Shown: piece after piece, positions 7,263 through 30,627 of the stretch | Layout of the letters: each line of letters begins with the position of its first letter | Position numbering within the stretch: position 1 is the stretch's first letter | Assembly (NCBI RefSeq): GCF_009914755.1 | Contig: NC_060948.1 | Length of the DNA stretch: 64,000 nt | Source of the DNA: the human T2T-CHM13v2.0 reference genome, Homo sapiens | Strand: one strand, 5' to 3' | Translations under genes and position numbers: made by a program | Notes under the pieces: model-generated | What the model was told of the DNA's origin: nothing | What the model saw: only the letters and a program-made list of their open reading frames with translations | Databases searched by the model: none

Positions 7263-7548
7263 GGCTGAGAGTGGTGGCTCACGCCTGTAATCTTAGCACT
7301 TTGGGAGTCCAACTAGGGTGGATTAGGATTTTAAGACCAGCCTGGCAAACATGGTGAAACACTGTCTGTACTAAAAATACACAAAATTAGCCAGCTGTGG
7401 TTGCACACATATCTAATACCAGTTACTCAGGATGCTGATGCAGGAGAATAGCTTAGACTTAGAAGGCGGAGGTTGCAGTAAGCCAAGATGGAGCCACTGC
7501 ACCCTAGCTTGGGCAACAAAGCTACGCTCCATCTAAAAAAAAAAAAAT
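7263..7548 (+). mobile_element. Alu (AluS-like)
   Basis: ggctgagagtggtggctcacgcctgtaatc ... poly-A. Confidence 0.88.
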
Positions 7549-9627
7549 AGGTAAAATCCCAACCATTCTAGATTTTTCCCATTTGTAAGAACTTATTACT
7601 AAACCATTACTTACAACAACCATTGTCAAAACTTTCATGAAAAAATTAACATGAGTACCTCCCAAGACAAAACACTTACTTTCCACTATTTAAACTAGGA
7701 ACATTTAATTTCATTATGCTATGCACTTGAGAAACTTAGCTGGTTCACTTTTGATTTAGGTAAAAAAGAATTTTCATTACTATTATCCTCCTTCAGTCAC
7801 AGAATGCTGCAAGTAGAATGTTCCAGATATCTTAAACTTTAGTATCAACCGCATCTAATTATTTCCTTTCACCTACACTATTCCTCTAAAAATAAACGTT
7901 TTATTGTGAGACAGATAGTTTTGTAGTCTTTCTGAAAACTTCTCAAACATTTTAAGCTTGTACGTTTTTAAAGAGAAACAGCCTAATTAGAAAACTTGTG
8001 CAGCTTGCAAGAAGACATAACATATGCCTAATTTTGTATCTATTCATGTTAAAAGAAACAAAGGAAAATATTCAACAACACAATTTACTCTCCTACTGAA
8101 TTTGTTTTTAAGCATGTGCAGCTAAGCAATAACACCAGCCATTTTGCATTGTAAAATTTTATTCTGAAAATTTTAATGTAGATATTACATCTAAACAGAT
8201 AGTTTTCAAATAGCATTAACAAGTAGGAAATTAATTTGAAAAAAAAATCCTTTTCCTTTGAATACTTCAAAAAATTCATGGGGGAAGTTAGTATCTACCT
8301 CTCTCCACAAAACCAACATGTTTCTTTTAGTAACACGCAGGTAACAATGCAGAAATAACATGTCAATTTTTGATTTGCAAACAAGGTTTGGTATGCAATA
8401 ACTATTATTTTGAATACTTGCTTTAATATCTGCTTCGGTCTCCTTTTTCAGATCAACTTTCCCCATCATCTCCTATAGATGCCACATAACTTGAGCTCCA
8501 TATGCTTCACGAGGAGCAGGGTGCAACCCATCCAGAGAAGATGGATTCCTTTGGTCTTTTCTACCAACATGCTCATGACCACAAGAATCAAAATCACCAC
8601 AGCTCCTTGAGTAACTCTCTGACTTTTGCCATATCTATCTCGTGTATTATTATAATCATGGCGGGTGCTTCCACCATAAGACATCCGAAGCCCTCGTGCA
8701 GGTGGTGCACCATGAGAGGTCCCTGCAGGGTTGATAAAATAATATGTTCGACTACATTTAAACATTTTTACTGCTATCACTAAAGCATGAATTAGTTAAA
8801 GTACTATTTGGAAATGTGTGCTTTCCTCTGCCTTTGTTGATAGGATATTAATTAAGCCTGCAATAGTAGGTCTTATTTAAAAGAAGTGTAAGTATAGTAT
8901 TTTGAAGCTGGACAAGTTTAATTCTAAAGTAAAGGTTGAGTCACATTTTCTAAACTTGAAATGAAGTTCTCACCTTCATATCGTTCCCTATGTTTTATAT
9001 TGTTAAGAATACTCAATATTTAAACACGTTATATTTGTCCTTCCTAACTTTCCTTAGAATTTCATTAAAATAACAATCTGGTCTATTAAATATAATTCTA
9101 TAATTTACAAATCCATCCAGGATCCTTACCATATCTCTGAAATGCATCTCTATAAGAACTTCCACTTAGATGTTCAGAATGATCTCTACCATAGCCCTCA
9201 CCGTAGCCACCACAATCACTAAACTAAAAAAAATAGAAAAGTTTTCTTAATGTCAGAATGAACAATTTAAGAAATCTATTTATTAAAGCCAGATGACGTT
9301 ATAGTACCTACATCCTCTAGAGGAATGTTCATCCCGACTAGAGCGACCATAATCACGATATGCATAGTCTCAAGGTGGTGGAGCATAATCCCTGGTTTCT
9401 CAGGAACTTGGATGATTTCTGTGTGCATAAGTTTAAGCAACCAATTTTGAAATTTCAACTTCTAGTATCCAAAACATCACTAAGTTACAATTAAAACCAA
9501 ATTAAAGGGCCAAACATCTAAATAAATTTCACTCCAAATAAAATAGGCAAATGCCCCAAAATCACATGGAACAGATACTCATAATCAGTGATGCAGAAAA
9601 ATCCATTTCAAATCCAGAATGAGATAC

Positions 9628-10189
9628 TGAGAGGTGACAGCGTACTGGCAGCCCTTGCAGCCTTCGCTGGCTCTCGGTGCCTCCTCGGCCTTGGTGCCCA
9701 CTCTGGCGGCGCTTGAGGAGCCCTTCAGACTGCCGCTGCACTGTGGGAGCTCCTTTCTGGCTGGCCAAGGCTGGAGCCGGCTCCCTCAGCTTGCGGGGAG
9801 GTGTGGAGGAGGGAGAGACGCCGACGGGAACCAGGGCTGTGCTCGGTGCTTGTGGGCCAGAGCGAGTTCCGGGTGGGCGTGGGATCGGTGGACACCGCAC
9901 TGGAGCGGCAGGATGGCCCACAAGCCCCAGGCAGTGAGGGGCTTACCACCTGGGCCAGCAGCTGCTGTGCTCCATTTCTCGCGGGGCCTTAGCTGCCTCC
10001 CCGCAGAGCAGGGCTCGGGACCTGCAGCCGGCCATGCCTGAGCCCACACCCCGGCCCCGCTGCCCTCCCCCTGCCACCCCGGGATCCCCTCCCCCCGCCA
10101 GCCCCGGCTCCCCTCCCCCTGCCCCCCCTCCGCCCTCCCCCTGCCAGAGACCACGAACCCACCAGAAGGAAGAAACTCCGAATACATCC
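9628..10189 (+). mobile_element. LTR12 (ERV9) LTR remnant, internally deleted and 3' truncated
   Basis: Starts tgagaggtgacagcgtactggcagccc (LTR12 5' end); CpG-rich U3; then jumps to gagaccacgaacccaccagaaggaagaaactccgaa (LTR12 3' repeats). Confidence 0.9.
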
Positions 10190-10437
<248 letters not shown>

Positions 10438-10927
10438 CTACACCAATTACCTGCTCTTTTGCTTGAAAACTAGGGGAAAAAAGAAATTATCATAGATTAG
10501 TATACATAAGTCAACATTATCTCCATACGTACCGCAAAGCCATGAACCAAAAGCTATTCTTGGTTTCTACCACAGCTTAAAACACTAATTTATAAGAGTG
10601 ACTACAAATGTACTTTCTGCTATGTGCCAGAAAGTGAGCTAGATGTAACAGAAAGAGAAGCAACTAGCAAGACTTAAATATGCACTATATACAACTTCAC
10701 AATCAATAGATTAATACATGGTACAGTGAGTACAAAATACCTATGTTATGCAATGAGGAAGAAAATATGAAATCTAAGTGGTTTTTGAAGCATAAATTTT
10801 ATTTATGAGACACACACAGGGAAGGATAATTCTCAAGAAGTCTAAAAAAGCACTTTGGGGATAGCGTGAAGACTAACAGGACCTAAAAACAGATTGGGAT
10901 GTTATTTATTATTATTTTTATTTGTTA

Positions 10928-11213
10928 TTTTTTTTAGATGGCGTCTTGCTCTGTCCCTAGCCTGAAGTGTAGTGGCATGATCTTGGCCACTGCAACCTCC
11001 GCCTCCCAGTTTCAAATGATTCCCCTGCCTCAGCCTACTGAGTAGCTGGAACTACAGACACACACCACCATGCATGGCTATTTTTTTTTGTATTTTAGGA
11101 GACGGGTTTTCACCATGTTGGCCATGATGGTTTTGTTCTCCTGACCTCATGATCTGCCCGCCTCAGCCTCTCAAAGTGCTGGGATTACAGGCATGAGCCA
11201 CCACGCCTGGCCT
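10928..11213 (-). mobile_element. Alu (antisense) in RBMY intron
   Basis: ttttagatggcgtcttgctctgtc...gctgggattacaggcatgagccaccacgcctggcc. Confidence 0.9.
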
Positions 11214-13067
11214 GATTGGGATAATGTTACACAGCAAAAAAGCTCTAAAGGGCCCATAATGGAATGATCTTGACTAAAGTGTAAAGGAATTCAATAGTTA
11301 CTTGAATTACATGAAAGTTTAAAGCTTTAGTAAACACACAATCCCAGATTTAAGACTCAGTAGGACAAGAGACCATTTGCTGGATCAAACAAGTCCTCAA
11401 CACACAGGGGAAATGAGTAATTAGGTATTCATGTTACATAAATCACTCTGGTGACAGGAAAAAAAAAATGTCCTTAGGAGAAAAGAGCAAGGATGGGGCA
11501 AAAATGCCAGTTACTTCTGTTATACAACTTCAAAGTTCTCATATTATTTTCTATTTTCAAGTACTTAACACTTCCTTAAATGTAAAGGTCTTATTGAAAT
11601 ATACTTTCTTAAGAATGTGTTTTCAGAAAATGGGAGACAATCTTTCTTTCTTGTGAGTCTGTCTAGATATCTATCCACAGTTTGACTATGCTATAGAAGT
11701 ATTTCCATGAGTTGGAAGTAATTACATTAATGGCATTTAATAAATGTTGACTTATCTCTTTCATTTACATGAGGGTTCCTTATAAGTTTTAAAGCTCTTT
11801 GAAACCTGTGAAAATCTATTTACACTCATATTGGAATACAAACATAGAAAAATGTTACCATATATTAATTTATGTAATGTTAATTCCAATACCCTTCCAA
11901 CTACACTCGCATGTATATAGCACAAAGAAGAGGATGGCTTCATATGGCATTCTACTATCTTCAAAATTTAGTAACATTAAAAAGACCTAGAAATACTGTT
12001 AATTGAAGAACAGAGTTAGAATATTATTAATAAGGGACACTTAACCTTTCCATTCATATCTTTGTCAGCATTCTTAGCATCTGCAGCGTTCTCAAAAGTA
12101 ACAAATGCAAAGGGTCTGGAGATTTGCTGCTTCAATCCTTTATGAAAAGAACTAAAATATATAAAAACATTTTACATTCATATAATGGACTCACCAAGGT
12201 AGTAACCATCTGAAAGTTACATGAAACCAAAAAATAATTGCATTTCACATCACTACTATGATTCTTAATACTAAGTCACCCCTATAGTCAGCCTATTTTT
12301 TCCAATTTGTTCCCTAACTCCATAACACATTTACTTTTTCTCATTTTCCTTTCTAAGTAGTAGGTGATCCTTACCACATACCCTTCACCTGCTGCTATGA
12401 GAATTTTCCAAAAATCAAATAGATACTTCAAGAGTTTAAATTTGATAAGGCATTTTAATGTATGTATAAAATGAACTTTAAAATATATATATATTTTCAA
12501 AATATATGTAACATACATATTTTAAATATACATATTGAAATATATATATATATGAAAATACAAACACACACACACAGTTTTAAGAGTTACCGTCTGATAC
12601 CAGACCATGTTTCACATCTTTTCATTCGTTTTAAGTATCTTTTCATTGGTTTTTCTATGTAGGCCACCAATGAAAAGCTTGCCAAGATGATCTGCTTTTA
12701 CCACTGTTGTGTAAAAGGTAAAAAAATTATCTATACTTAGATAAAAATAAATAAGCTAAAAAGATAAAATTTTATTACACACTGTGTTGAAAACTCAAGT
12801 AAAATTCCCTTTCAAAGGCTGACATCTTTTTAATATTTCTTATTTTCAATATGTAAAATTTGTAACACACAGAGCAAAAGGAGCACTGACTTCGTGAACA
12901 AATGCTGCATTTTAATATGTACCTGACAAAATCTTGTTTCTAAAAATTGGATAAGAAAAGCTATTGTAATTTTCCTAAGTTACAATATGAACGATGCCCT
13001 CATTTAAACAATTTTATTTGAAAACTACATATTTATGAGGTACAGTTTGATGTTTTGTGTATTTTCT

Positions 13068-13338
13068 TTCTTGAGATGTTTATCACCTGTTGCCAAAGTG
13101 CGTGGCTCACTGCAGCCTCCTCCACCCAGCCTCAACTGATCTTTCCACGTCTCATTTTCCCAAGTAGCTGGTACTACAGGGACTTTCTCCCAGAGCTGGG
13201 CAATATTTTTGTCTTTTTTAAAATAGACATGAGTTTCCTCATATTGCCCAAGCTGGTCTCCAAATCCTGCGCTCAAGTGATCTGCCGGCTTAGGACTACC
13301 AAAGTGATGGGATTTCAAGGGTGAACCACCATGACCAG
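13068..13338 (-). mobile_element. AluJ-like (antisense) in RBMY intron 1
   Basis: ggctcactgcagcctcc...ctggtctccaaatcctgcgctcaagtgatc. Confidence 0.8.
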
Positions 13339-14704
13339 CATAATATTTTGATAAAAGATTAAATCAAGCTAATTAAAATATTCTTGGGGAAGAGCATTTT
13401 AAATATTTTACCATATTTTAGTGTTCTGAAATATACAATAAGTCAAGGATCGCTAAACCTGGCCTTCAACCCGTACCTATCTGTGGCCTGAATGTAATGC
13501 CTGAGGATGACCTAAGGTGGTACATTTTCATCTGGAAAACATCCTCTCTATTCCCCCGCTGCCCCACCCTGCCCCTGTGGCAGCCCCGCAGCCCCACCTG
13601 TCCCCTGTCACACTGCTCCCACCAGAAGCCCCGTCCCACCAGTTGCCCCTCGGGGCCCTGCCACCAGCCCCCCACTGCCAAACGTGTCCATCTCTACACC
13701 TTCTTCCCCTGCACAACCCTTGTCTGAGGAAAAATTGTCTTCTACTAAACCAGTCCCTGATGCTAAAATGGCAATAGATTAAAGGAGTCAATTATGTTAC
13801 CAAGGCTGGTCTCCAACTCCTGACCTCAAGCCATACTCCTACCTCCACTTCACAAAATGCTAGAATTACAAGAGTAAGTCAGTGTGCCAGGTTAATGGAT
13901 AGTTAAGCGCATCTATTTTGTTCCCATTGTAGGCTATCTAACTCCATTTATCTCGATTATGCCCACTTATTCACTTTACGTTATTTACCGTGCTAGAGAC
14001 ATATGAAACATGTTTCAAATACTGTCATACAAGGAAGGAGACAATTACAGGCTTTACAGAGGCAAATTTAAACTGAGATTATTTATGGCCCCAGACTTCT
14101 ATATACACTGAAGTAACACAATTTATGTCAAAATTTGATAATTCCTGCCAAGCAAATCAGACATGTGACATGTGCTGACTAAAAGTATAAGTTTTTAATC
14201 ACAGTGGTTAAGTATATTGCCTGTATTTTGAATTATGACCACACTTACAGAGAAAAACTGCTTTAATAAAAAGTGCATATGAAAACAATGGCGCCTTAGC
14301 ACCATCTTCCACAACTTGCCCACATGTCGTACATGTCCGACAGCTAAAGGTAGAATCCTCAAGAAAAATCAATGAGTTTAACAAAAATGAGTTTCTTAAT
14401 AGCACTTAAGTGTTCTCTCCCCACTGTCTCCTCTCATAATTCGACACTCACACATAGAAAACCCATCCCCTTTTACAGATAAAATCCCAAACCTTTGCTT
14501 TCTATTCTTGCCGAAAGCAAACCTGTCCAGAGAAAAAGAAATTACAGGTGCTTTTCAGTAAGACAAACAACCTGAGGGTTGCCCGGCCCTCAGGTCACAT
14601 GCATCTGGCTTTGGGTCACCACAAGGCCAACTGCGGGAAGGACACCTGGAGCTGGCCTGAGCTGGAAGGACACTAGAAGCCATGCCCGGAAATCCCACCT
14701 ACTT

Positions 14705-15560
14705 CTAGCGGCCAATCATTGCCACGGCGGTGGGCTTCAGCCAATTATTGTGAGGGTGGTAGGTGTCTCCCGAGGTGCCCCACCCCTGGCTGGCCTGCAG
14801 CTCCATCCTTCCGTGGTTATAAGCATCAATACAGCTTGTGCAGGGCGGCGGTGGATTCAGGCACACGCGGACTGTGAGCCCTTTGGAAATGTGGGCATGG
14901 AAGACGTACACCCTAACTGGCATCCTGAGTGTGGCGAAGCATTGACCCACACGGAACACATGAAACATCTCACTACATTAGACGGGCTAGGCAGATAGTA
15001 CTGAATATTGCGATCCACAGGGGAGAAAGAGGGACCAGCTCTGCCTGCTTGGGAGAGGGCATTGGCGATGGCTTGGAGAGAGTGGGGCAGGGCGGATCCT
15101 TGGGAGGAAAGTCGACTGGTACGTTGCTGGGGTGGAATTCGTCTGCACCAGAAGATGAAAACCGCAACGACTCTTTAATATCTAGGCAAATACAGGCTCC
15201 GAGTTCCATGCTTCCTCCTTGAGGATGGTGTACTCACAGGGGCATTGCAAAGGACCTCTTATCCTCTGCCCTGGGCACACGGGAGTCCAGCCAACATACT
15301 CGCCAATCCAATGACCCTTTGCAGTGCCTTCTGGCGCAGAGGGTCCCTCAAGTGCAGCAGTGGCCGTGGTGCCTACTAGCAGGGCTCTGGAAGCACAGGG
15401 CCTCGGCTTCCGACTCCAGGGCTGCTGTGCACAGCTAATACTGCTGGGTATCTGGGCCCCATGGCGAGTGTGTGGCAGGCTGCAGGACTGCGGGGCTCCC
15501 CAGGAACCCTGCATTCACGTAGGTGTTCTCAGTAGGGCAAGCCCCGTGGGCCTCTCTGGG
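14705..15560. promoter_or_regulatory. Divergent promoter block between the RBMY pseudogene and TSPY-like copy A
   Basis: Two CCAAT plus GC-box modules (14712, 14741) just upstream of RBMY exon 1; locally CpG-enriched; collinear homology to the TSPY upstream block at 26300-27200. Confidence 0.7.
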
Positions 15561-17750
15561 AGCTGACCCAAGTGTCTAGGGGTGCTGGGGTGTGGGGTGG
15601 GTGGCACAGGCCTTAGTCTGTGGGAGGCTCAAGGAGGGCACTGTGTTAAGGCGGAGGCTCTGCAGGAGAAACTGTGCACAAAGCAGGGAGGCAACCCTGG
15701 GGGAAGAGGCATGCTACTTGGGGCTGACATCAGAGATGGAGGTGGTGGCCAAGGAGGAGGCCAATGTGGAGTGGTAGCAGGAGGACGAGCAGACATATCC
15801 TGGCCCTGGCCCTGGTACACCCCGGCCGGCAACGGAATTGCTGGACGTCCTTCACCTGGAGCTGGGCTCCGTGAATGCCACAGGCCACAGGGCATCCCCC
15901 GTTTCTGGGCCAGAGCCATATCCTTGAAGCTGCCAATTCAGGATGGCTGGCAGCAGTGGGTGGGCACCGAGCTCCCGGGAGCAGGGTTGGGGGAAACATG
16001 GTGGTCGGCACTGGGGGTCAGCCAGGATTCAGGACATGGGGGACAATGAGGGGAACAGAGGACAGGCTCATGCAGATAGAAGGGCAGCTTAATTGCAGGT
16101 GCCTTCAGGGCACATGGTAGGGACAGGAAGCCAAGCACAGCACTCACAAAGGTGAAGAGCAGCGCAAAGGACGGTTCATAAACGGCAGAAAGTTGAAGGA
16201 CATGTTTCACTGGGAAAGTTCCTGGAGGAAAGGGAGTCTTCATGCCCATGACAGCCATGGAACTACCCCCGCACCCTGTGCCTATGTCCAGCAGACTCAC
16301 CCCAGAAACACAAGGTGCTCAAGACTGGGGTTCACAATGTACTGGGCTGCCATGTCTTCTTCAAGGCAGTCACCAGCTCCCCAGACATGATTTCTTCCCT
16401 ATGCCAGCACTGCTCCCGAAGATGTTTAGGCCCTGAGCATATATAACCTCTGTTGAAAACACTTGAGCCCCATGGGGAGAGCCAGGCACAGCTCTGCAGC
16501 CACTTCTACATACAGCTGTTCCATCACGTGGACGCGCCCATCCCTCAGGGAGACCAGGAGAAGGGCAGACCACACACCCAGACAGCAGCAGAGCCTGTCC
16601 AGCACCCAGCACAAGAGGGCCTCCTGCAGCTCAGGAGCCCTGAGCAAGTAGCCATCTCACCCCACAACACCCTACCCCTGACCCCCTGCCCACTTCTTCT
16701 GTGCCCACCCTTGGTAAGAGCAGGCTGTTTGGGCCTGCCTCCATTCGCCAATAAGACCACCATAGCCGTGACAGTGCCGCGCACACCAGACAGAAACAGA
16801 GGACCTGGAAGTGAAGGTGCCAGGCCAAAGGCCTGGGGAATACCCTGCCCCACACTCTCCATGCTCTTGCAAAGTTGCAGCGTGTCTCCTTACACACCCA
16901 CTCAATCATCTAGTGGCTCCTTGACCAGAGGCAGATTGTGTGGCACACCCAAGCTGGCCGGGATCACAAATGATGATGAAGTCCTTCTAAGCTACATGAT
17001 GGATTTGCAGGTCAGGTTAAGGAAACTGGGTCTGTGGGAGGGTTCCAATGTCTGGGTCATGTTGAGGTTCCCTTGGGGCCTGGAGGTGTCTCAGCAGGAT
17101 TGCTGGGAAGGGGAAATGCATGCTTTACCCCAGCTAGCAGGTCACCTCAGCCTGGCTACATGAAATGGTCCTTTAAGTCCATCCTTTTTCTCCTTCTTGG
17201 CCAGGTAGGGGAAGGAAGTCACCCATCCCAGGTACCGGCAGCAGGATGAAGTTTTCTTTTCATCACAAACTATATTTCCACAATGACGTGATCATTCAGG
17301 AGTTGGCATCTTCAGTAAGGAGTGTCTCCCAGTGTGGTAGAGGAGGTTGTGTGTGGGTGGGTAGGTCTGGCATGAGCCTTCCTGACTCCTCTCTCTCCAG
17401 GACACAGGATGTCTCATTCCCTGCAGTCTAGTGGTCGTGGGATCATGAAGGTCAAGCCTCCAGCTGTAGGCAGTACAGCTCCTACCTGAGCTTCTTCAGC
17501 TGGTTGGCTGACCATGACTGCCCAGGTTCTAGCAGGATTGCTGAGGTGGGAGCCGAGGTAGGGCATCACGGGAAAGGATCTTGCTGCTCATTCCTTGGCC
17601 TCTGGGGAATTGGCTTTGAGCCATGACCTGAACTAACCTGTACCCACTTCTGCAGTCCGGCAGATCATCAGCCAGGGCCTGTGGCTCAATCTCTTGCAGT
17701 ACTTCCGGAGAGAGGGAGGCTATTAGAGAGCGAACAGAGAGCAGGCCCGG
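15560..17750 (+). pseudogene. Diverged TSPY-family pseudogene, copy A (FAM197Y-like)
   Basis: Exon 1 remnant (EMEVVAKEEANVEW*; PGPGT; LELGSVNA). Exon 2 ~16935-17010 (cacacccaagctg...agctacatgatggatttgcag|gtcagg). Exon 3 ~17205-17315 (YFHNDVIIQE). Exon 4 17401-17544 (SHS...W...LSFFSWLADHD...RIAE|gtggga). Exon 5 ~17664-17749 (IISQGLWLNLLQY). Many disablements. Confidence 0.88.
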
Positions 17751-18439
17751 TGAGAAGTCTAGGGCTGGGGATTGAGAGAGGCCTTTGATTCCTGAAGTTG
17801 TACCCCACAGGGAGAACCTGAGCCTCAGGAAGGCGACTGCAGTGAGCAATCCCAGGCCATCCATGGGCTGGCAGAGAAATGGCCATCAGGAAACTATAAC
17901 ACCACATTTCAGGATTAGGGATCCTTAAGCTGCCTAAGAGGCATAAGTGTCTAAGATCAGTGGGTGAGAAGCGAGGCTCAAGGAGTAGCTGTCTCATCAT
18001 CCCTTGATGGCTCCCCTCCCTGTCCTGAGGCTAGCTACCACTTAGGGCTCAGTTTGGGCTCAGCAAGGGCCCTCTCAGCCTCCATGCAGATGTCCTGCAG
18101 AGGCCTGCGTCTACGTCCTCCGAGAATGGCTCTCCCAGGCCCATCATTTTCTGTTACGATGACCCTGGGTTTCCCTGACATGCTTTCTCCCCTCTGCCAT
18201 CCTCATTCACTCAGGCCCTGCCTACCCCCAGAAAAGACATGCCAATGCACAGGGAATCTGGATGACCACACAGGGCTTACAGGGGAGGAAATGTGAACAG
18301 ATGGTAAAATGGAAGGGGACCTTCTGTGTGTGTCCAGGAAGGCAATCTGGCTGGGCATTAAGGCACACCTCACTATTGGTGAGGACACCCAGTGTCTCTT
18401 TGTCCAGAGAATGTGCACACAAACACACATATTGTCTAA

Positions 18440-20170
18440 ATGGGATTGACATCAGTACTACCTAGTGATCTACAGATTCCATACAATGCCTGTAAAAATA
18501 TCAATGACCCACTCTTCACAGAAAACCAATCTGAGAATCCTAAATTTGCTATGAAATGGCAGAAGATCCTGAAGACCCAGGGCAATCCAGTAAAAAGCAC
18601 AAAGCTGGAGGCATCACACTACCTAACTTCACAATCTACTACAAAGTTTTATGTACCAAAATAGAACAGCACTGGCAGAAAAACAGAGACCTGAGCTAAT
18701 GAAAAACAACAGAGGCCCAGAACTAAGTCACTGCATTAGTAGCTCATGACCTTTTCCCAAAGAAGCAAGAACACACAATGCAAAATCAAGTATCTTCTAT
18801 AAACTAGGTTGGGGAAAACCTAAATATCCACATGAAGGATCTTAAAAGTAGATTATTTCTCACCAAACTCCATTATCAGACCTGAAACAATAGAAATACC
18901 AAAAGAAATCACAAAGAAGAAGCTCCATGACATCAGTGTGGGCAATGATGGTATCAAAGTGACTGCAAGAGCACAGTAAATACCATCAAAAATAGAGAAT
19001 GTCATTATATCAAACTAAAGTGCTTCAGCACACCACAGGAAACTAAACAGAGGGAAGGGACATCCTACAAGATGGGTGAAATTATTGGATCACCATAGAG
19101 CTGTTAATGGGTGAATATTTACTGTACATGAGGAATTCCAACAACTCAATAGCATGAAAACAAATGGGCTAAAGATGTGAATACTTTTTGTGAAACAAAG
19201 ACATACAGCTGCCCAGAAGACACATTAAAAAGCACTCATCATCCTTAATACATTAGGAGAATGCAAATCAAAACCACAATGAGATTTCATCTCACTTCAG
19301 TCAGAATGCCTATTATCCAAAAGATTTTAAAAAAGCTCATTTCTGGTAAGCATGCAGAGAAAAGGAAATTCTTGCACACTTTTGGTGAGAATGTAAATTA
19401 TGGCAGGCATGGCAAGAAGCTTTAAGGCTTTTATTTAAGTAGAAAGAGGCTTCACAAATCTACAAGTAGAACCACCCACCATATGATCCAGCAAATCGGA
19501 ATACCGAGGAATACCCACAAATACACAAAACAGTATGTTGAAGCGGTGCATGCACCGATGCAATTTTTGCTGCACTATTTACATTTTTGCTGTAGCCAAA
19601 ATACAGAAGCAATCTGAGTATCCCTCAGTTGATGAGTGGATAACAAATGGGGCACATATGCCCAATGGAAAAATGGGCTGCTATAACAAAGAAGGAAATC
19701 CTGCCAGTTGTGACAATGCTTGTGAATCTGGTGAATGTGTGCATGCCATTTTGTTAAGTGACATAAGCCAGGTATCAGAAAGGCAAATAGCACATGACCT
19801 CATTCCTATATGAAATCTAAAAAGCAGACCTCACAGAGGTAGTGACTCCAACGGCTGGGGTGGTGTTTAGTGAAGAGGGTGCTGAGGAGATGTCGGATCA
19901 AGAATTCATATTTCTAGTTAGAATGGAGGAATAGGTTAAAAACCTTTTCTAAAGCATGCTGACTATAACTAGTGATAACACATTCTTTCTCTAAAAAATT
20001 CTAAGAGAGTTCATGTGAAGTTTTATCACCACAAAAATAACAAGTATATGAGGTCATGCATGTGTTGATTAGCTGGATGTATCCAGTGCATAACATACAT
20101 GACCTTTTGAACATCACCCTATAAGTTATACATATGTATCATTTCATATGTCAATTTAAAAAATAAACAT
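18440..20170 (+). mobile_element. Old L1 (L1M-type) ORF2 3' part and 3'UTR
   Basis: gatctacagattccatacaatgcc; ctggaggcatcacactacctaacttc; atgcaaatcaaaaccacaatgaga; ccctcagttgatgagtggataa. Confidence 0.88.
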
Positions 20171-20467
20171 ACAATTTTTAAAATTCCTTAAGAGAATCAA
20201 TGTTGATAAACTATTTTATTATAAAGAAGTGCTTTTCTTTTCTACCTGTATCAATGTCTTTTTCATGACACAGGACAGAATGCAACGTAGTTTGGTAAGT
20301 TAAAAAATATATATAAAAATAAAAATAAATCCCAATGTAGATGATCAATGAAAGATAGAAATCACAGGTCCATAGACTATATAGTACATGAACGGAAACC
20401 TTCACTGCATGTTTCAAAAGAAGACGTGAGCAGGCAGAAGGAAAAAGCAAAAAACTCAAAAAGCCAT

Positions 20468-20772
20468 TCCAGGGCCCTGGGTCACACCTGTAATCCCAAC
20501 ACTTTCAGAGGCTGAGGTGGGAGGATTGCCTACACTCAGGAGTTCCAACCCAGCCTGGGGCAACAAGGGCCCACGTCTAAAAAGTAATTAATTAGTTAAT
20601 TAATATGTCGCTGGGAGGGGTGGCATGCATCTGTAGTGCCAGCTATGTGAGAGTCTGAGTTGAGAGGATCACATGGGAGTGGGGTGTCCAGGCTGCAGTG
20701 GGCTGAGATCCTGGTGCTGCTCTCCAACCTAGGAGACAGAGTAAGACCCATTCTCAGAAAACAAACAAAAAT
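20468..20772 (+). mobile_element. AluJ-like element
   Basis: cacacctgtaatcccaacactt...ggctgcagtgggctgagatc. Confidence 0.85.
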
Positions 20773-23425: not shown

Positions 23426-23427
<2 letters not shown>

Positions 23428-23463: not shown

Positions 23464-23467
<4 letters not shown>

Positions 23468-23479: not shown

Positions 23480-26221
23480 ATAGTGTTTATTTTTCATTCC
23501 ATACAATCCAAGTTTATCCCCTTTTCCTGTCTGCATTTTTTGTGACTGGGTCTGTTTTTCCTTTAGTTCCTGTGCATAAGACCATGCTGAGTACTGAAAT
23601 CCTGCATACCATAGTAACTTATTAGGAGTTGTGCTGTTTTAGTTAAAGTCTGATGCTCCATCACATTCAACTCAAAATCTGGATGTCCCCTAGAGAAAAA
23701 CAACCATATGTCAAAATGCACTTCTTCTGAGCCATACTTTAAAATGTTTTAATTTTAGGGCCTGCCTAGAAAAGACTATCCCTTCCCCATTTGTGATCTC
23801 TTAAACTTCCTCCTACCATGTGTTACAAACTGTTATCTGCAATATCTGCCACATTCCCAGTATTCTCTGTGATGGGAGTCAGCTAACAAGATGCATTGTA
23901 CACTAAAAGCAGACAGAAATATGTTGAGGCAATAGCTTAAGAAAATCCATTAATCTAAACAGTCTTGTGGTTTGCGGCAAGGATGACAAGGAGGCACATT
24001 CAGGGAGCCCAATCTTAAGGGGTTGGTAGGATGACTGCCAGTGGGGTTGATGGCCACGGAATCAAGTGCCACACATTGAAGTTAATTATTCAGCTTTACT
24101 TCTCAGTGAGTCTGGACATGTACTATGCTTCCCCGGGCTTTAGACTCCACAGCTATAACCTGCTTTGCAGTCCAGTGTCTAATGTGGCTTTTTCAGCCCA
24201 ATGGCCTGAATGTTCTGGATTTTGTCACTCTCTGTCTTCCTATCAAGGAATTTCTACTTGTATGAAGGGAGCCTCAACTTCTACATTTCTGAAATGAGCC
24301 CCCAGGCTCCCTAAATAGGGAGGTGTGTCAGACCCCTCATAGTGGCAATCAAACAGCTCCAATTACAACTGAATGGCTCACCTGAAATCTCTCTTCCCTC
24401 TTCAGATGGCTTTATCCTTATGTAGTATTGCAGGGGATTGCACCACAGTTCCTTACATAGGATCTATCAGGGGAATCAATAGGGAAAGGCCTCATCAGGG
24501 CTCAGAATGGTGACCCAAGCAACTGGGAACACACCGGGGTCATCCTGATGTTTCCCAGCGAGGACCCACCTCAGCAATCCTATTAGATCCTGTGAAGTTG
24601 TGGTCAGAAAACCAGTTGAATAAGTTAAGGCCGCTGTTGTAGTGTCTGTGGCCACAGGCCTCCACTTCATAATCCTCATACCACTGAATTGGAGTGGAAT
24701 GAGAAGCCCTGTATTTTACAAAGACATGATTTTGTGGGAAGGGGGCTGGATCACATTGGCAATGATCCACCCACCATCTTCCTTCCACTACCTATCTTGG
24801 GAGCCACCTGTACCTGTGACGTTCACGAGATATTCCTCGGTAATCACTTTATTCTGGAAGTAGGGGGCGTCAGAAAGAACAACATGATCTTGCAGAGATG
24901 AACAGGATGCTTCACTTCTTCCACCTGTCAGGACAATGTGGAGGAAGCTTAAATACCTTTTTGGGTGAGGTGCCCACTGTTGCTTACAGGAATGAATTAT
25001 TTCCCTTGCCCTTCCCACTCTACTCTCTAACCTCAGTCTTCCCGGCCTCAACTACAAGTTGATCATGTAGCTCAGCCTGTCTTCATCTTAGTCAGTGATC
25101 AGTGATGACATCTGGGGGTGGTTCGCAATCTGACTTAGGTCAAAGAGACTTTAGATGTGATGGGAGGTAAAGCTAGAAGCAACAGGGAAGAAGGCCTAAG
25201 AGTACCCAGAGGCGGAGGTAGGAGGTAGGGGATTTCTCAGATTTGCTTCCACATATGACCTCCGTTTCTCCTCTCCCTCCCCCTGAATTAAGTCCTGCTG
25301 GGTTCACGGAGGGTGTGTAATTCTGAGGCTAACTGCATTGACATGGAGAGGGGCGATTTGCAGAGAGGTGCTGGTGTCTGAGGAGTGGTAGAATCTGCTT
25401 ATACCTGAAGACGCCCAGTCCCAGATTGGATTGGCAAGGGGGAGCAATCACATTTCCTTAAAAATAGCTTGATTCACAGAAAAACCTATTCTGGTCTGAA
25501 CTCGCTTCTGCTCTTCAAAAAGATGCCGCAAATATCTGCTGCTAGGCATCACGAAGGGTTTCATTGCCACATGCAGGAAAACAGTACCCACGTCTGCTCT
25601 GGCTTTCCATGGTCACATTTGTCCATGGCAACTCACCGTTGGTCCCCAAATAGTCACGTCGACACAGAGCTGCCTGTATGTTACTTACACTTCCCCAAGA
25701 GCACCTCTCAACTAGAAAGGCAGAAGAAACACTGAAAAGGAATCACCATTGGCCCAGAAGCCAGGGATGCTCTGAATGATGTCGCCTCTCCGGCCCAGGT
25801 GGGACTTGCACCTCTCCTCCATCTTTTCCCTCTGCTGAGAAAACGCCTTCTTAGCTCGGGCATTAACCGGCTCCAGCTCCACCTGAACAGCCAGCAGCTC
25901 CTCCAGTGTAGATTCTGGAGTCATAGGCCCAGGGCCAGGCTGTGCCTACTGGTCCTCCTCCTACCACTCCACGTCGGCCTCCTCCTGGGCCACCACCTTC
26001 ACCTCCGCCATTATGTCATCCGCCACCTGCACCACCTCCTCCTCCAAGGCAGCCTCCTCGCTCAGCGCCCCGGGCGCCCCCTCCTGTAGAGCCTCCATCC
26101 TGAAGACGGTACCCTTCTTCGAACTCCCACAGACCAACACCTATGCTGCCCGACCCACGCGACAAGAACCCTGCAGCTACCTTTATTGAACCCCTTGGGT
26201 CAGCAGGCCCTCAGGGGGCAT
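23480..26221 (-). pseudogene. TSPY12P: TSPY pseudogene with canonical 6-exon structure (copy B)
   Basis: ATG at 26221 (MPPEGLLT); exon 1 to ~25745 ([38 protein letters not shown]...[10 protein letters not shown]); exon 2 25129-25052 (78 nt, IANHPQMSSLITD*DE); exon 3 24924-24814 (frameshifted); exon 4 24715-24570 ([11 protein letters not shown]...[16 protein letters not shown]); exon 5 24463-24382 ([14 protein letters not shown]); exon 6 23689-23667; AATAAA at ~23490. Stops and broken splice sites. Locus symbol recalled, not verified. Confidence 0.95.
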
Positions 26222-27200
26222 GCGCCGGGCTTCCAGGCGCCCCCTAACAGATTGCATGCAAAGGGCACCGGGAGCCACTCCAAGACTGCCTGTCTCCGCA
26301 GCACGGCCAATCAGTGCCAGGGCGGTGGGTGTCTCCCTGGGTGGCCTCACTCGAGGCTGGCCTGCAGTCCCAGTCTCCCGGGGTAAGCCTCCTCCGAGAA
26401 GCTCTCAGAGCTTGTGCCAGGTAGCGCTGCATCCAGGCACATGCGGGCTGAGTGGCCTTTGGAATTGTGGGCATGGAAGCCATGTGCCCTAAATGACATC
26501 CTGGGCGTGGCAAGCCATTGACCCACAGGGAACACATGAAACCTCTCACTTCATTAGGCAGGCCAGGTAGATAGTATGGAATAGTGCACATCCAGAGAAC
26601 TCTCTCTGGCTGCTGGGGCAAGGGCAGGGGGAGTGGCCGGAGGAAAGTGGGTCAGGGCGGGCGCGTGGGAGGAAAGTTGCCTGCTTGTGCTGAGGTTGAA
26701 TTCGTCTGCTCCAGAGGCCAGAACCCGGGCAAACACTCTCGCAGGTCTAGGCAAATACAGGCTCCGCATACAATGCTTCCTCCCTGAGGATGCTGTATTC
26801 CAAGAAGCATTCCAAAGGGCCTCTCATCCTATGCCCTGGGCATACCAGAGGCCAGCCAGCAGGGTTGGCCATAGACGGCCTGCGTGCACGCTATTGTGCA
26901 CTGCCTTGCCAACCCATAGGCTCCTGCAAGTGCAGCAGCGGCTGTGGTGCCTGTTGGTGGGGCTCTACAAGCCCAGGGCCTCTGCCTCCAGCTCCTGATC
27001 TCCTGTGTGGAGTTGACACTGCTGGGGACCTGAGTCCCAGGGTGAGTGAGGCGATCTGCGGGGGCAAGCAGGGGCTCATCAGGAAACCTGGGTCCACATG
27101 GGTGTGGGAATATGTTCTTAGCAGCTTGAGGCCTGTGGGTCTTTTGGGGAGCGGGCCTCCTGGGGAACGGCCCCCAGGGCCTAGGGGTGCTGAGGATGGG
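26222..27200. promoter_or_regulatory. TSPY upstream / divergent promoter block
   Basis: CCAAT at 26307 followed by a gggcgg GC box; CpG-enriched; lies between head-to-head TSPY copies B and C. Confidence 0.7.
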
Positions 27201-29403
27201 CTGGGCTGCACAGGCCGGGGTCTGTGGGAGCATCCAGGAGGGCACCATGTTCAGGCTGGAGGCTCTGCTGGACAGGACAGACGGGGCACAGAGCAAGGAA
27301 GTAGCCTTGGAAGAGGAGGCGGTGCTGACGGTGGAAGTCATAATGATTGATGTGGAGGTGGTGGTTGAGGAGGAGACCGACATGGAGTGGCAGAAGATAG
27401 ACGAGTGGGCACAGCCTGGCCCTGGACCCAGCACAACTGGGCCGTCAATGGACTCACTGGAGGTCCATCACTTGGAGCTGGGCTCCTTGAATACCCTATG
27501 CCACAGGGCATCTCCAGCTTCTGGGCCAGAGCCATATCCTTGAGGCTGCCCCTTTGGGATGGCTGGCAGCTGCGGATGGGCATCAGGCTTCAGGGGGGGA
27601 ATGGGGGCTGAGTCGGGGGAGAAACCAGGAGGGAGGCACATGGGGTCAGCCAGGAGGCAGGGGATAGGGGACAGGGTGGGAGCTGAGGCCAGGTTCCTGC
27701 AGATATGAGGCCAGCTTGCTTGTGGGAACCCTGGGACCGCATAGTAAGGACGGGGAGCCAGGCACAGCACTCACAAGGGAGAATCACGGTGCCAAGGTCC
27801 CTTCAGGCACAGCACAAAGTTGAAGGGCAAGTTTCCCTGGGAAATTCCCTGGAGGATGAGGAGTCTGCATGCCATTGCCAGCCATTGAACCACCCCTGCT
27901 CTCAGTGCCTGTTTCCAACAGCCTCACCCCAGAAACAAGGTGCTTAAGACGGCTTCGCGGTGCATGGGGCTGCTGACCTCCACAAGGCAGGCACCAGCTA
28001 CCCAGATACACTTTCTTCCCCTTGAGGTGCTGCACCCAAAGGGGTGTAGGCCCTGAGCATATATAACCTCCTTTGCACCCATGCAATTCCCATGGGAAGC
28101 ACCAGGCAAAACCCTACAGACCCTTCTATCTACAAGGCTTCCCTTAAGTGGACAGAACCACCCCTCAGGGAGACCAGGATAAGAGGACACCACACACCTG
28201 GACATCTGCAGAGCGTGTCCAGCACCCAGCACACAAGGGCCTCCTGCAGCTCATGAACCCAGAGGAATCAGCTGCCTCACACCACACTGCCCCCCGCCCC
28301 TTCAGCTGCAACCACCTGTCCACTTTTTCTGCCTCCTGTCTCTGGTCAGCCCAGGACATCTTGGCCGGGGTCCACCCCCCGAAAAAACCACCACAGTTGT
28401 GGCATTGCCTCCTTGCCAGACAGAGACAGAGGACCAAAAAAGGACGATGGCAGGCCAAATGTCTGGGAGATAACCCTGCTCCACATTCTCTGTGCTCTTT
28501 CAAAGTTTCAGGGTGTCATGAGGCTTGCCCACCCAATCAACTGGAGGCTCTTTGACCAAAGGTATATTGTTTGGCACACCCAGATCCTGTGTGAGAAACC
28601 ATGATGAAGTCCTGTTTTGGTACATGATGGATTTTTAAGTCAGGCTGGGGAGCTTGGGTCTGTGGGAGGGGTCTGGTATCTGAAGCAGTTTGAGGTCCCC
28701 TGGGGCCCGGGGATGTCTCAGTGGCAGAGCTACGAAGGGGAAACTCATGCTTCACTCCAGCTAGCAGGCCACCTCAGCCCAGCTAGATGAAATGGTGCCA
28801 TTGAGTCTGTCTACTTTATCCTTCTTGGTCAGGCAGGTGAGGGAACTCAGCCATCCCAGTTACTGGCAGCAGGATGAAGATTTCCTTTCGTCACAACCTT
28901 TACTTTCATAATGAAGTGATAATTAAGGAGTACTACCATTGGTATCCTCGGTAAGGAGTACCTCCCAGCATGGTAGGGGAGCTGGTGTGTGAGAGGGTCA
29001 GCCTGGCATGAACCTTCCTGACTCCTCTCCCTCCAGGGTACAGGGTGTCTCATTCCACTGCAGTCCAGTGGTTCTGGGATCATGAGGGTCAAGCCTCCAG
29101 CTGCAGGCAGAACATCACCTACCTGAGCTTGTTCAGCTGTTTGGCTGAACATGAGTGCCTGGGTTTTCGCAGGATTGCTGAGGTGGGAGTCGCGGTGAGG
29201 GCTGCGGTGGGGCATCATGGGAAAGGACCTCACTGGTCATTCCTTGGCTTCTGGGGAATTGGCTTTGAGCCATGACCTGACCTTTCCTGGACGACCTTCT
29301 GCAGTCCCCCAGATCATCAGCCAGGGCCTATGTCTCAATCCGTTGCAGTACTGCCCCAGGGAGAGAGGGATGGTATTAGAGAGGGAAACAGAGAGGAGGG
29401 CAG
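27150..29403 (+). pseudogene. Diverged TSPY-family pseudogene, copy C (FAM197Y-like)
   Basis: ORF 27187-27543 (EGTMFRLEALL...ALEEEAVL...EVVVEEE...PGPGP...LELGSLN) aligns with TSPY exon 1. Exon 2 ~28565-28640; exon 3 ~28836-28950; exon 4 ~29037-29182 (SHSTAVQWFWDHE...RIAE|gtggga); exon 5 ~29313-29403 (IISQGLCLNPLQY). Confidence 0.9.
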
Positions 29404-30627
29404 GTGAGCAGCCTAGGGCTAGGATCTGAGAGTCCTTTGAGTCCTGGATCTGTGCCCCACACAGAGAATCCAAAGATCATGGAGGAGACTGCAGTGAGCA
29501 ATCCCAGGCCATTTATGGTTTGAGAGAGAAAGGCCCATTAGGGAACTGCAACACCCACATTTCAGGATTGGGGAACCCTAATCCACCTACAATGCATATG
29601 TGGCTAAGGTCAGTGGGTGAGAAGCAAGGCTTAAGGGATAGCTGTCTTATCATCACTTGCCAGCTCCTTCCCCTGCCCTGAGGCTTGCTACCACCTGGGT
29701 CTCAGATTGAGCTCAACCAGGGTGCTCTCTCTCTCCACACAGATGTCCACAGGAGGCCCGTCTAGGTCTACATCCTTTCAGAATGTTTCTCCCAGGCCTG
29801 TCATGTTGTGTTTTGATGAAGCCGGGCTCCCCTGACATGCATTCTCATCTCTGCCATCCTCATCCCCACTGCCCTGCCTTCCCAGATGAGACAGGCCACT
29901 GCACAGGGAATCTGGAGGACCACACTAAGCTCCAGTGTGAGGAAATGTTCTATTTTCTTCATGCACATGTATTTTAGAGTTTCCTCCAGGGGAGGAAATG
30001 TGAAGAGATTGCAAAATGGCTGGGGACCTTCAGTGTGTGTCCAGGGAGGGAACCTGGCTGGGAATTAAGGCCCACCTGAGTAATGGTATGGACATCCAGT
30101 GTCAGTTATCTTGATGAAGACCTGCTTTCTTACATCACCTACTATTAGTATAAAAGTTAATTCCTTAGAATATTGAAAAAACAAATCTGTGTATGAGGAA
30201 ATATAATTTGTTCATAATTGTATGGAAAAAACTGCTGACTGATCCATTTTCCATTACAATTCTTATGTGAGACTTGAAGAGTTTATCAAGTTTTAAAAAG
30301 CATTTTTATTGTTCTACTCCTGGCAATTTTTATGATCATTTTTTCAATACAGGGACATAGATTCTAGAAAGTTTTTGAGGGACTTTCAGCTTCTTTAGAG
30401 TACTTACTTGTAAATTTTGATTTTTTTTCCTTGTGGTTCTTTTCAATTTACTATTTATATTTTATATGTGAGGTTTTAAATTTGTTTTCTTATTTGCCCC
30501 TTCTGGAACTTTTAAAGGATTTTTTTTTTCTGTTAGATATGTGCATTTGGCTGTGAGTACTTTCTCTACTACAGATTTTTTTTGTTGCTGTTTGTTAGTT
30601 TTTGGGGTGTGTGATTGTTTGTTTACT

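What the first reader, a model, noticed from the sequence alone, without database searches (positions are those of the whole stretch)
14705..15560. RBMY and TSPY, two unrelated genes, sit behind the same promoter sequence
Seen: the DNA directly upstream of RBMY exon 1 is collinear with the DNA directly upstream of the TSPY ATG. Examples: gcggccaatcattgccacggcggtggg (14708) vs acggccaatcagtgccagggcggtggg (26303); ctggcctgcag; ggaacacatgaaac.tctcact.cattag; tctaggcaaatacaggctccg. Homology runs to within tens of bases of each gene's start. The RBMY side has the CCAAT/GC module twice (14712, 14741). Known: RBMY derives from the broadly expressed RBMX ancestor and TSPY from the TSPYL2 ancestor, yet both are germ-cell-specific. 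Inference: one gene captured the other's promoter, giving a shared germ-cell regulatory cassette that may explain their co-expression and co-amplification.
Basis: partly seen in the sequence, partly recalled or inferred. Interest (0 to 1): 0.8.

Follow-up and report, generated by a model that had tools for sequence, protein, structure and literature searches.

The report
RBMY runs on a TSPY-derived promoter
Human RBMY genes and TSPY genes really do share about 4 kb of upstream DNA, because the RBMY family carries a promoter and untranslated first exon that descend from a TSPY gene unit.

Summary
Window 14740-18396 aligns with 26306-30103 at 73% identity over 3.8 kb. The same block lies directly upstream of all six intact RBMY1 genes and of the TSPY array copies, so it is not an accident of two dead copies. 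It is not a transposon. It is a roughly 1 kb spacer plus a complete, degenerate TSPY-like gene copy (exons 1-5) lying head-to-head with the downstream gene.

Homology continues past the CCAAT box and the transcription start, through the TSPY start codon to about codon 11-12. Nearly all of RBMY's non-coding exon 1 is therefore TSPY-derived. RBMY exons 2-3 match RBMX, but its exon 1 and promoter do not. A tree splits RBMY-linked from TSPY-linked blocks on one branch with 100/100 support.

Best reading: one old DNA-level fusion replaced one arm of a TSPY inverted duplication with RBMY. Capture is supported, in the direction TSPY to RBMY. That the shared block explains germ-cell expression is unproven, and the cited literature places RBMY's testis specificity earlier. 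I found no open-access report of this.

The parts
14567..18396 (+). Block A: the whole stretch upstream of RBMY2HP that is homologous to the TSPY upstream block. It comprises most of RBMY exon 1, the core promoter, the spacer and the inverted TSPY-like copy.
   Evidence: 14740-18396 vs 26306-30103, 73.2%. extend it gene-ward to about 14567. One search shows window 10190-18395 collinear with an intact RBMY1 unit at 83.8%.
14546..14693 (-). RBMY2HP equivalent of RBMY non-coding exon 1 (148 nt). At least 14567-14693 is homologous to the TSPY 5'UTR, start codon and first ~11 codons. The GT donor lies at 14545/14544.
   Evidence: The hub annotation ends the pseudogene at 14693. The donor position was read (CAG|GTATTT in RBMY1). 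One search shows the RBMY1 ATG is in exon 2. One search gives the homology range 4-143 from the CCAAT box.
14711..14768 (-). Core promoter modules: the proximal CCAAT box with a GC-rich box, followed by its RBMY-specific 29-nt tandem duplicate (second CCAAT at 14741).
   Evidence: The proximal CCAAT is exact in 18 of 18 RBMY-linked and 9 of 12 TSPY-linked loci. The duplicate is in 10 of 10 versus 0 of 7 representatives. GCCAATCA is one of only six runs of 8 or more columns in which at least 16 of 17 copies agree.
14769..15579 (.). Spacer between RBMY exon 1 and the inverted TSPY-like exon 1. It corresponds to the proximal TSPY promoter region.
   Evidence: It is not palindromic.
15580..17711 (+). 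Degenerate TSPY-like gene copy lying head-to-head with RBMY2HP, with exon 1- to exon 5-like pieces in order and stops and frameshifts.
   Evidence: tblastn with a spliced TSPY array protein: 15580-15894 (aa 18-129), 16936-17025, 17432-17548, 17646-17711. blastn to TSPY12P exons 1 and 3 in minus orientation. There is a 1-nt deletion in the exon 4-like piece.
17313..17663 (.). Slow-evolving island in block A (inverted exon 4-like piece plus flanking intron-like DNA).
   Evidence: RBMY1 versus TSPY array 313/354 identical here against 2467/3485 elsewhere. Fisher P = 3e-14.
26189..30103 (+). Block B: the homologous stretch upstream of TSPY12P, running from about codon 11 of TSPY12P through the 5'UTR, promoter, spacer and inverted TSPY-like copy.
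   Evidence: One search shows window 23427-30731 collinear with a TSPY array unit at 83.2%.
25745..26266 (-). TSPY12P exon 1 (ATG at 26221), with five in-frame stops.
   Evidence: Hub annotation. (aa 1-161 at 26221-25748). (4 TAG, 1 TAA).
27184..29360 (+). Degenerate TSPY-like gene copy lying head-to-head with TSPY12P.
   Evidence: 27184-27510 (aa 18-129), 28856-29185, 29274-29360; 27197-27496 is an inverted repeat of TSPY12P exon 1 26157-25858 at 70.3%.
28947..29312 (.). Slow-evolving island in block B.

Best explanation
The shared DNA is one arm and the spacer of an ancient TSPY inverted duplication.

In a TSPY unit, the TSPY gene and a diverged TSPY-like copy lie head to head. A non-palindromic spacer of about 1 kb separates them. 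It holds the TSPY promoter, the 5'UTR and the first ~20 codons.

In the ancestor of all human RBMY copies that keep a 5' end, a DNA-level rearrangement joined a copy of this unit, broken at about TSPY codon 11-12, to an RBMX-derived RBMY gene upstream of its ATG-bearing exon 2. Since then RBMY transcription is inferred to start at the TSPY-type CCAAT/GC-box, TATA-less promoter. It would run through a roughly 150-nt exon that is almost wholly former TSPY 5'UTR and start-codon sequence, now untranslated, and splice to RBMY exon 2.

Shown: the homology, its extent, its presence in functional copies, the single origin, and the lack of similarity to RBMX.

Inferred: the direction TSPY to RBMY, that this is the working RBMY1 promoter, and that the inherited TSPY regulatory DNA contributes to RBMY1's germ-line expression. 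That DNA includes the region covered by the 2.9 kb fragment reported sufficient for testis expression in mice.
For: 1. Extent. Block A versus block B is 73.2% identical over 3836 columns. An intact RBMY1 unit versus a TSPY array unit is 73.6% over 4144 columns, with only Alu matches elsewhere.

2. Functional copies.
- The window's RBMY side is collinear with an RBMY1 unit and its TSPY side with an array unit.
- Six RBMY1 5' ends at 100% identity all carry the block.
- An inverted TSPY-like exon 1 lies next to 6 of 6 RBMY1 genes.
- 46 inverted exon-1-like matches accompany 45 array TSPY exon 1 matches.

3. Nature of the block.
- TSPY-like exons 1-5 lie in order on the opposite strand in all four sequences examined.
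- The TSPY gene and this copy form an inverted repeat: exon 1 arms 72.6%, the exon 3-5 zone 60.8%.
- The repeat arms start near aa 20. The spacer is not palindromic. The block's distal end falls at the end of the inverted arm.

4. Exon 1. Homology passes the CCAAT box and reaches about 32 nt past the TSPY ATG (alignment of 17 copies; consensus test 1/2000, z 5.7; nhmmer 9 of 10 real versus 0 of 500 decoys). Nothing is detectable beyond that point (684/1000 shuffles reach the score).

5. RBMX.
- RBMY1 exons 2 and 3 match RBMX at 79-80%.
- Both genes have the ATG in exon 2.
- RBMY exon 1, the start of intron 1 and the block show nothing against the RBMX 5' region.

6. Single event. The tree of 23 copies separates 13 RBMY-linked from 10 TSPY-linked copies on one branch, 100/100. 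All 30 loci classify cleanly as 18 RBMY-side and 12 TSPY-side.

7. Promoter activity.
- CpG observed/expected in the 400 nt around the CCAAT box is 0.70/0.85 (30 CpG) in RBMY1 against 0.27/0.52 (13 CpG) in RBMY2HP.
- It is 0.75/0.45 in the TSPY array against 0.55/0.31 in TSPY12P.
- PMC3954093 (passages read) reports 1.3, 2.4 and 2.9 kb TSPY upstream fragments, the last sufficient for testis-specific expression in mice. All lie inside the shared block.
Against: No transcript data were available here. The RBMY1 start site rests on the end of the RBMY2HP annotation and on a conserved GT donor.

The direction of capture is argued from parsimony (the symmetry of the TSPY inverted repeat), not from an outgroup. 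No other mammalian genome could be searched.

Gene-ward homology is weak for single pairs. RBMY1 versus the TSPY array alone is not significant (508/1000). It becomes clear only with consensus or profile methods.

The promoter-proximal spacer is not better conserved than the rest of the block (0.67-0.69 versus about 0.71), and only six short near-invariant runs exist. Selective constraint on a shared cassette is therefore not shown.

RBMY is reported to be testis-specific in mammals generally (PMC12154609 passage), so the capture need not be why RBMY is germ-cell specific.

Absence of similarity to RBMX is expected anyway after such old X-Y divergence.
Confidence: 0.75

Rival explanations
1. 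Reverse capture. The block with its inverted TSPY-like copy originally lay upstream of RBMY, and the TSPY gene later acquired RBMY's promoter, 5'UTR and a new start codon.
For: The homology itself is symmetric and no outgroup was available. The tree is unrooted with respect to this question.
Against: The shared segment contains the start codon and first ~11 codons that TSPY actually uses. In RBMY the same bases are untranslated.

The TSPY arrangement is a symmetric inverted duplication of a whole TSPY gene around the spacer. A single duplication produces that. The reverse path needs a TSPY gene inserted so as to recreate the symmetry.

In some copies the inverted arm matches TSPY from aa 7-15. 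TSPY N-terminal coding sequence is therefore native to the duplication.
Confidence: 0.06
2. Passive relic. The homology is only a trace of how the amplicon units were built. The inherited TSPY DNA beyond the minimal CCAAT/GC core has no shared regulatory role, and RBMY1 and TSPY are controlled independently.
For: - The spacer is conserved no better than the block average.
- Few invariant motifs exist.
- The RBMY side has its own 29-nt duplication and a 26-nt insertion at the core.
- In RBMY1 the CpG-rich zone is narrow (-200 to +200), while the TSPY array keeps raised CpG to about +1800.
- RBMY is testis-specific in species where this fusion is not known (PMC12154609 passage).
Against: Functional copies keep CpGs at the shared core that the pseudogenes have lost.

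A ~350-nt island evolves more slowly in every comparison: 0.83-0.93 between families and 0.84-0.95 within them. Counting RBMY1 against the TSPY array, the island differs from the rest of the block at Fisher P = 3e-14.

The island overlaps the distal 540 nt of the 2.9 kb TSPY fragment, which PMC3954093 suggests may hold germ-cell enhancers.
Confidence: 0.3
3. Independent insertion of the same repeat or transposon upstream of both genes.
For: The T2T-Y paper mentions new repeat annotations inside both composite units (passages read). Their identity could not be checked.
Against: - The block is a TSPY-like gene copy with exon- and intron-like parts.
- No stretch of 100 bases or more between 11218 and 32634 is in the hub's list of masked repeats.
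- All 40 scored matches of 76 candidates are on chrY.
- The junction with the gene is identical within each family, and the two families split once.
Confidence: 0.02

Closest known systems
Human TSPY promoter as used in transgenic mice (1.3, 2.4 and 2.9 kb upstream fragments; PMC3954093, passages read)
   Same: The TSPY-side block is this DNA. By the quoted lengths, all three fragments fall inside the 4.1 kb that RBMY1 shares.
   Different: Those studies treat it as TSPY's own promoter. The passages I read mention neither RBMY nor the inverted TSPY-like gene copy inside the fragment. The review contains no word beginning with RBM (0 occurrences).
CYorf16 / FAM197Y transcription unit in each DYZ5 (TSPY) repeat
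   Same: It is described as an antisense ORF or pseudogene transcription unit present once per TSPY unit (PMC6280758 and PMC3954084 passages). The inverted TSPY-like copy is likewise present once per unit, and in array units it has a 266-codon stop-free frame.
   Different: The RBMY-linked copies carry stops.
Composite repeat units of the TSPY (about 20.2 kb) and RBMY (23.6 kb) arrays in T2T-Y (10.1101/2022.12.01.518724, passages read)
   Same: These are the same arrays. The paper calls their composite structure similar (one unit per gene, comparable size).
   Different: The passages read do not say that the two units share a homologous 4 kb segment or a promoter. The supplementary tables could not be seen.
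Chimeric genes made by capture of another gene's promoter and first exon (for example Drosophila Sdic and jingwei; recalled, not checked here)
   Same: The 5' regulatory region and first exon come from one parent and the coding body from another, followed by amplification.
   Different: Here the captured exon has become wholly untranslated. The donor and recipient are both old Y-linked testis genes, and every family member with a 5' end descends from the fusion.

Membership tests
Chimeric gene formed by promoter / first-exon capture | The 5' flank and first exon are homologous to those of a different gene. | tested here: met
Chimeric gene formed by promoter / first-exon capture | The remaining exons derive from another parent gene, whose own 5' end is unrelated. 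| tested here: met
   RBMY1 exons 2-3 match RBMX at 79-80%. Exon 1 and the block show no match to the RBMX 5' region. The negative result is weak evidence given the age of the X-Y split.
Chimeric gene formed by promoter / first-exon capture | Transcripts start in the captured exon and splice to the recipient's exons. | not testable with these tools
   Only indirect support: the annotation end at 14693, the conserved GT donor, the exon 2 acceptor and CpG retention.
Chimeric gene formed by promoter / first-exon capture | One junction is shared by all members (a single event). | tested here: met
   All 10 RBMY-linked representatives align across the junction. One 100/100 branch separates the families.
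Transposable element inserted independently at both sites | Dispersed copies beyond the two gene families, a repeat annotation, and no genic content. | tested here: not met
   All 40 scored matches are on chrY and each of the 30 fetched loci is linked to RBMY or TSPY. The content is TSPY-like exons. The block is not in the hub's masked list.
TSPY / NAP-domain gene family (for the inverted copy) | Collinear homology to TSPY exons, with introns. | tested here: met
TSPY / NAP-domain gene family (for the inverted copy) | An intact reading frame. | tested here: not met
   Stops or frameshifts occur in the RBMY-linked copies and no long Met-initiated frame is conserved. It is a relic, not a working member.
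CpG-rich CCAAT/GC-box TATA-less promoter | A conserved CCAAT box and GC-rich box just upstream of the start site, with CpG observed/expected of 0.6 or more in active copies. | tested here: met
   Factor binding was not testable.
Bidirectional promoter | Two divergent transcription units sharing a short intergenic region. | tested here: inconclusive
   The geometry fits (about 1 kb between the TSPY ATG and the inverted exon 1-like piece). Transcription of the inverted copy was not tested.

The most novel reading that the evidence does not exclude
All human RBMY expression depends on regulatory DNA taken from TSPY. A ~350-nt slow-evolving island inside the dead, inverted TSPY-like copy, made of former NAP-domain exon 4 and its flanks, has been co-opted as a germ-cell enhancer that serves both RBMY1 and TSPY. 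This could explain their joint silencing by methylation and their joint ectopic activation in male tumours.
Probability: 0.2. Interest if true: 0.8.

Novelty: new variant of a known kind. Interest (0 to 1): 0.6.

Why it matters
RBMY and TSPY are two of the main multi-copy spermatogenesis genes of the human Y, and both are ectopically switched on in male cancers. If RBMY uses a TSPY-derived promoter and first exon, four things follow.

- The two array units share a common ancestor segment.
- A Y gene replaced its ancestral CpG-island promoter with that of a neighbouring testis gene.
- Promoter studies done for TSPY become directly relevant to RBMY1.
- About 4 kb upstream of every RBMY and TSPY copy contains a TSPY-like relic that the hub's gene table for this window does not annotate. 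This can confuse mapping, probe design and pseudogene counts.

It also gives a concrete comparative test of when and how a Y-linked gene rewired its regulation.

Tried and rejected
1. Palindrome idea. I asked whether the ~1 kb between the TSPY ATG and the inverted copy is itself an inverted repeat, meaning two copies of one promoter. It is not. Only the coding arms pair, starting near aa 20.

2. RBMX and TSPYL2 promoters. blastn with word size 7 and Smith-Waterman with shuffles found no similarity to the block or to RBMY exon 1. Only the 3' coding part of TSPY exon 1 matches TSPYL2, at 65%. This does not discriminate origins because of the age of the X-Y split.

3. Pairwise tests of gene-ward homology were weak or null for RBMY1 itself (508/1000 and 376/1000). 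Consensus and profile tests were needed.

4. Homology beyond about codon 12 into RBMY intron 1: none (684/1000).

5. Coding constraint as the cause of the conserved island was rejected as the sole cause. The intron-like flank is as conserved as the exon-like part (0.82-0.93 versus 0.87-0.90), and the RBMY-linked copies have a stop or a frameshift there.

6. My first splice of TSPY exons gave a truncated 216-aa frame. A second gave 345 aa by choosing the longest frame. The true isoform was not verified. The protein was used only as a tblastn probe.

7. The lookup of earlier findings was not open.

8. Literature searches and passages in ten papers gave no statement of RBMY/TSPY promoter homology. 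Older subscription papers on RBMY gene structure and the supplements of the T2T papers could not be seen and may bear on novelty.

Full report
**Observation**

A blastn of the window against itself gives one long collinear match, 14740-18396 versus 26306-30103. It is on the same strand, 73.2% identical over 3836 columns, E = 0. The shared DNA is therefore about 3.7 kb in this window, not 0.85 kb.

The same comparison showed two short matches in the opposite orientation. Window 15592-15813 matches TSPY12P exon 1, and 17404-17550 matches TSPY12P exon 3. This was the first sign that the block is itself TSPY-like.

**Is it only a rearrangement of two dead copies? No.**

- Searching the window's own genome with 14705-15560 gave 40 scored matches out of 76 candidates, all on chrY.
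- Copies at about 81% identity lie at 22.28-23.24 Mb, some spaced 23.5 kb apart.
- Copies at about 69% identity recur every ~20.3 kb from 8.96 to 9.69 Mb.
- I fetched one unit of each kind.
- Window 10190-18395 is collinear with the 22.4 Mb unit at 83.8%. Window 23427-30731 is collinear with the 9.12 Mb unit at 83.2%.
- The 22.4 Mb unit is one of six places whose 5' 2.4 kb is 100% identical. Each of these has an intact RBMY exon 2. They are the RBMY1 genes.
- The 9.12 Mb unit carries an intact TSPY exon 1 identical to most array copies.
- Compared directly, the RBMY1 unit and the TSPY array unit share 18046-21999 versus 13408-17499 (73.6%, 4144 columns). Otherwise they share only Alu-sized matches.

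**What the block is**

A TSPY protein spliced in silico from the array copy finds exon 1- to exon 5-like pieces, in order, on the strand opposite to the downstream gene. This holds in all four sequences:

| Sequence | Range |
|---|---|
| Window, RBMY2HP side | 15580-17711 |
| Window, TSPY12P side | 27184-29360 |
| TSPY array unit | 14204-16360 |
| RBMY1 unit | 18780-20748 |

In the whole-genome protein search, 45 array TSPY exon 1 matches are accompanied by 46 inverted exon 1-like matches. All six RBMY1 genes have one too.

Within a TSPY unit, the gene and this copy form an old inverted repeat. Exon 1 is 72.6% identical and the exon 3-5 zone 60.8%. The arms begin near aa 20, and there is simple sequence at both outer ends.

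The ~1.05 kb between the arms is not palindromic. It contains the first ~20 TSPY codons, the 5'UTR and the promoter.

The RBMY/TSPY homology ends distally where the inverted arm ends. The block is therefore the spacer plus one whole arm of a TSPY inverted duplication.

It is not an annotated repeat. The hub lists no masked stretch of 100 bases or more between 11218 and 32634.

**The gene-side edge**

RBMY1's ATG lies at the start of exon 2, as in RBMX. Exon 1 is untranslated.

An alignment of 10 RBMY-linked and 7 TSPY-linked copies shows homology continuing from the CCAAT box through the start sites and across the TSPY start codon. Single pairs are weak:

| Pair | Shuffles reaching the score |
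|---|---|
| RBMY1 vs TSPY array | 508/1000 |
| RBMY2HP vs TSPY array | 5/1000 |

Stronger methods resolve it.

- Consensus against consensus gives a score reached by 1 of 2000 dinucleotide shuffles (z 5.7). The hit is at the collinear position.
- A profile of the TSPY side, with the CCAAT box excluded, hits 9 of 10 RBMY-side sequences at 10-19 bits. The best of 500 shuffles reached 2.8 bits.
- The match spans RBMY positions 4-143 (to 156 in one copy) from the box and TSPY positions 4-116. That is about 32 nt past the TSPY ATG.
- Beyond that point nothing is detectable.

In window terms, RBMY2HP exon 1 is 14693-14546, and at least 14693-14567 is TSPY-derived.

The RBMY side differs by a 29-nt tandem duplicate of the CCAAT/GC module (10 of 10 versus 0 of 7) and a 26-nt insertion in exon 1.

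The base triplet homologous to the TSPY start codon is still ATG in 7 of 10 RBMY-linked representatives. There it opens a four-codon frame. It is lost in the three representatives of the RBMY1 clade (read).

**Ancestry of the two parts of RBMY**

RBMY1 exons 2 and 3 match RBMX at 79-80%. RBMX has its CpG island 0.75-1.45 kb upstream of its ATG. Neither blastn at word size 7 nor local alignment with shuffles finds any similarity between that region and RBMY exon 1, the start of intron 1, or the block. TSPYL2's 5' region also shows none. These negatives are expected for such old gametologues, so they carry little weight alone.

**One event, and its direction**

A maximum-likelihood tree of 900 nt of the block from 23 copies puts the 13 RBMY-linked and 10 TSPY-linked copies on either side of a single branch with 100/100 support. 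The stem lengths are 0.074 and 0.12. All 30 fetched loci classify cleanly by their gene-side sequence, 18 as RBMY and 12 as TSPY. The split is therefore older than the diversification of either family on the human Y.

It is younger than the TSPY inverted duplication. The inverted arms are 61-73% identical, whereas the RBMY and TSPY blocks are 71-93% identical over the same stretch.

I infer the direction TSPY to RBMY for three reasons.

- The shared bases include the codons TSPY translates.
- The TSPY layout is the direct product of one inverted duplication.
- In RBMY units the second arm is simply replaced from about codon 12 onward. No TSPY remainder lies downstream.

**Function**

Shown here: functional copies keep CpGs at the shared core that the pseudogenes have lost.

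| Copy | CpG obs/exp, -200..0 and 0..+200 of the CCAAT box |
|---|---|
| RBMY1 | 0.70 / 0.85 |
| RBMY2HP | 0.27 / 0.52 |
| TSPY array | 0.75 / 0.45 |
| TSPY12P | 0.55 / 0.31 |

This pattern is expected of a promoter that is unmethylated in the germ line.

From print: TSPY upstream fragments of 1.3, 2.4 and 2.9 kb drive reporters in mice. The 2.9 kb fragment was judged sufficient for testis-specific expression, and its distal 540 nt was suggested to hold germ-cell enhancers (PMC3954093, passages). By those lengths all fragments lie within the shared block.

A ~350-nt island is 313/354 identical between RBMY1 and the TSPY array, against 2467/3485 for the rest of the block (P = 3e-14). It lies at TSPY unit 15932-16285, which is window about 17313-17663 and 28947-29312. 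It is also slower-evolving within each family. It overlaps that distal 540 nt by about 216 nt. This overlap rests on applying the quoted fragment lengths to a different TSPY copy.

Against a strongly constrained shared cassette:

- The spacer next to the start sites is conserved at only 0.67-0.69.
- Only six runs of 8 or more columns are near-invariant in 17 copies. One of them is the CCAAT box.
- Rbmy and Tspy are said to have been testis-specific already in the therian ancestor (PMC12154609, passage).

**Comparison with what is known**

The T2T-Y paper calls the two composite units similar in organisation, but in the passages read it does not state sequence homology. A 2026 preprint analyses the TSPY and RBMY upstream sequences "separately". 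CYorf16 is described as an antisense or pseudogene unit in each TSPY repeat. It may or may not be the inverted copy.

Eight full-text searches found no statement that RBMY and TSPY share a promoter or first exon. The library lacks most older subscription papers, and supplements of the preprints were closed. Prior description therefore cannot be excluded.

**Verdict**

Promoter and first-exon capture by RBMY from a TSPY unit is the best-supported explanation (0.75). The regulatory consequences remain to be tested.

Noticed in passing
window 28594-30103; TSPY array unit C24:9118001-9139500 (L034-L036), reverse-complement positions 3767-5183: The distal part of the block has a second, partial copy elsewhere in each TSPY array unit (72.7%). 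It carries exon 3-5-like pieces, so a TSPY unit holds the gene, the inverted copy and a third fragment.
   Followed up: partly
window 9613-10190: Compared with an intact RBMY1 unit, RBMY2HP lacks about 8.4 kb of gene body. Unit positions 4901-13294 have no collinear counterpart.
   Followed up: no
C24 places listed (e.g. 26076963, 24456975, 23606414, 10268720, 7776162, 23224551, 23032338, 22185067): Eight RBMY-like places on the Y match only from inside intron 1 onward. They lack exon 1 and the block and are 5'-truncated copies.
   Followed up: no
TSPY array units, e.g. C24:9125007-9125312 (-): In array units the inverted exon 1-like piece sits in a 266-codon stop-free frame (104 codons from the first Met). 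RBMY1-linked copies have a TAG there. This may be the reported CYorf16/FAM197Y ORF, or just GC-rich chance.
   Followed up: partly
window 14590-14600 and homologous places in L002-L015: The triplet homologous to the TSPY start codon is kept as ATG in 7 of 10 RBMY-linked representatives, where it would open a four-codon upstream frame. It is lost in the three representatives of the RBMY1 clade (read).
   Followed up: partly
window 7330705 and 7342306 in C24 terms (this window); also C24 10.35/10.39 Mb and 8.93/8.94 Mb: RBMY-linked and TSPY-linked blocks recur as near neighbours at several places on Yp (coordinates). This suggests that RBMY-TSPY pairs were duplicated together.
   Followed up: no
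literature, PMC4815804: In testicular embryonal carcinoma the only Y-linked promoters reported as hypermethylated were RBMY1A1/B/D and FAM197Y2P, the latter lying in the TSPY repeat (abstract and table read). This would fit common control of the homologous blocks.
   Followed up: no
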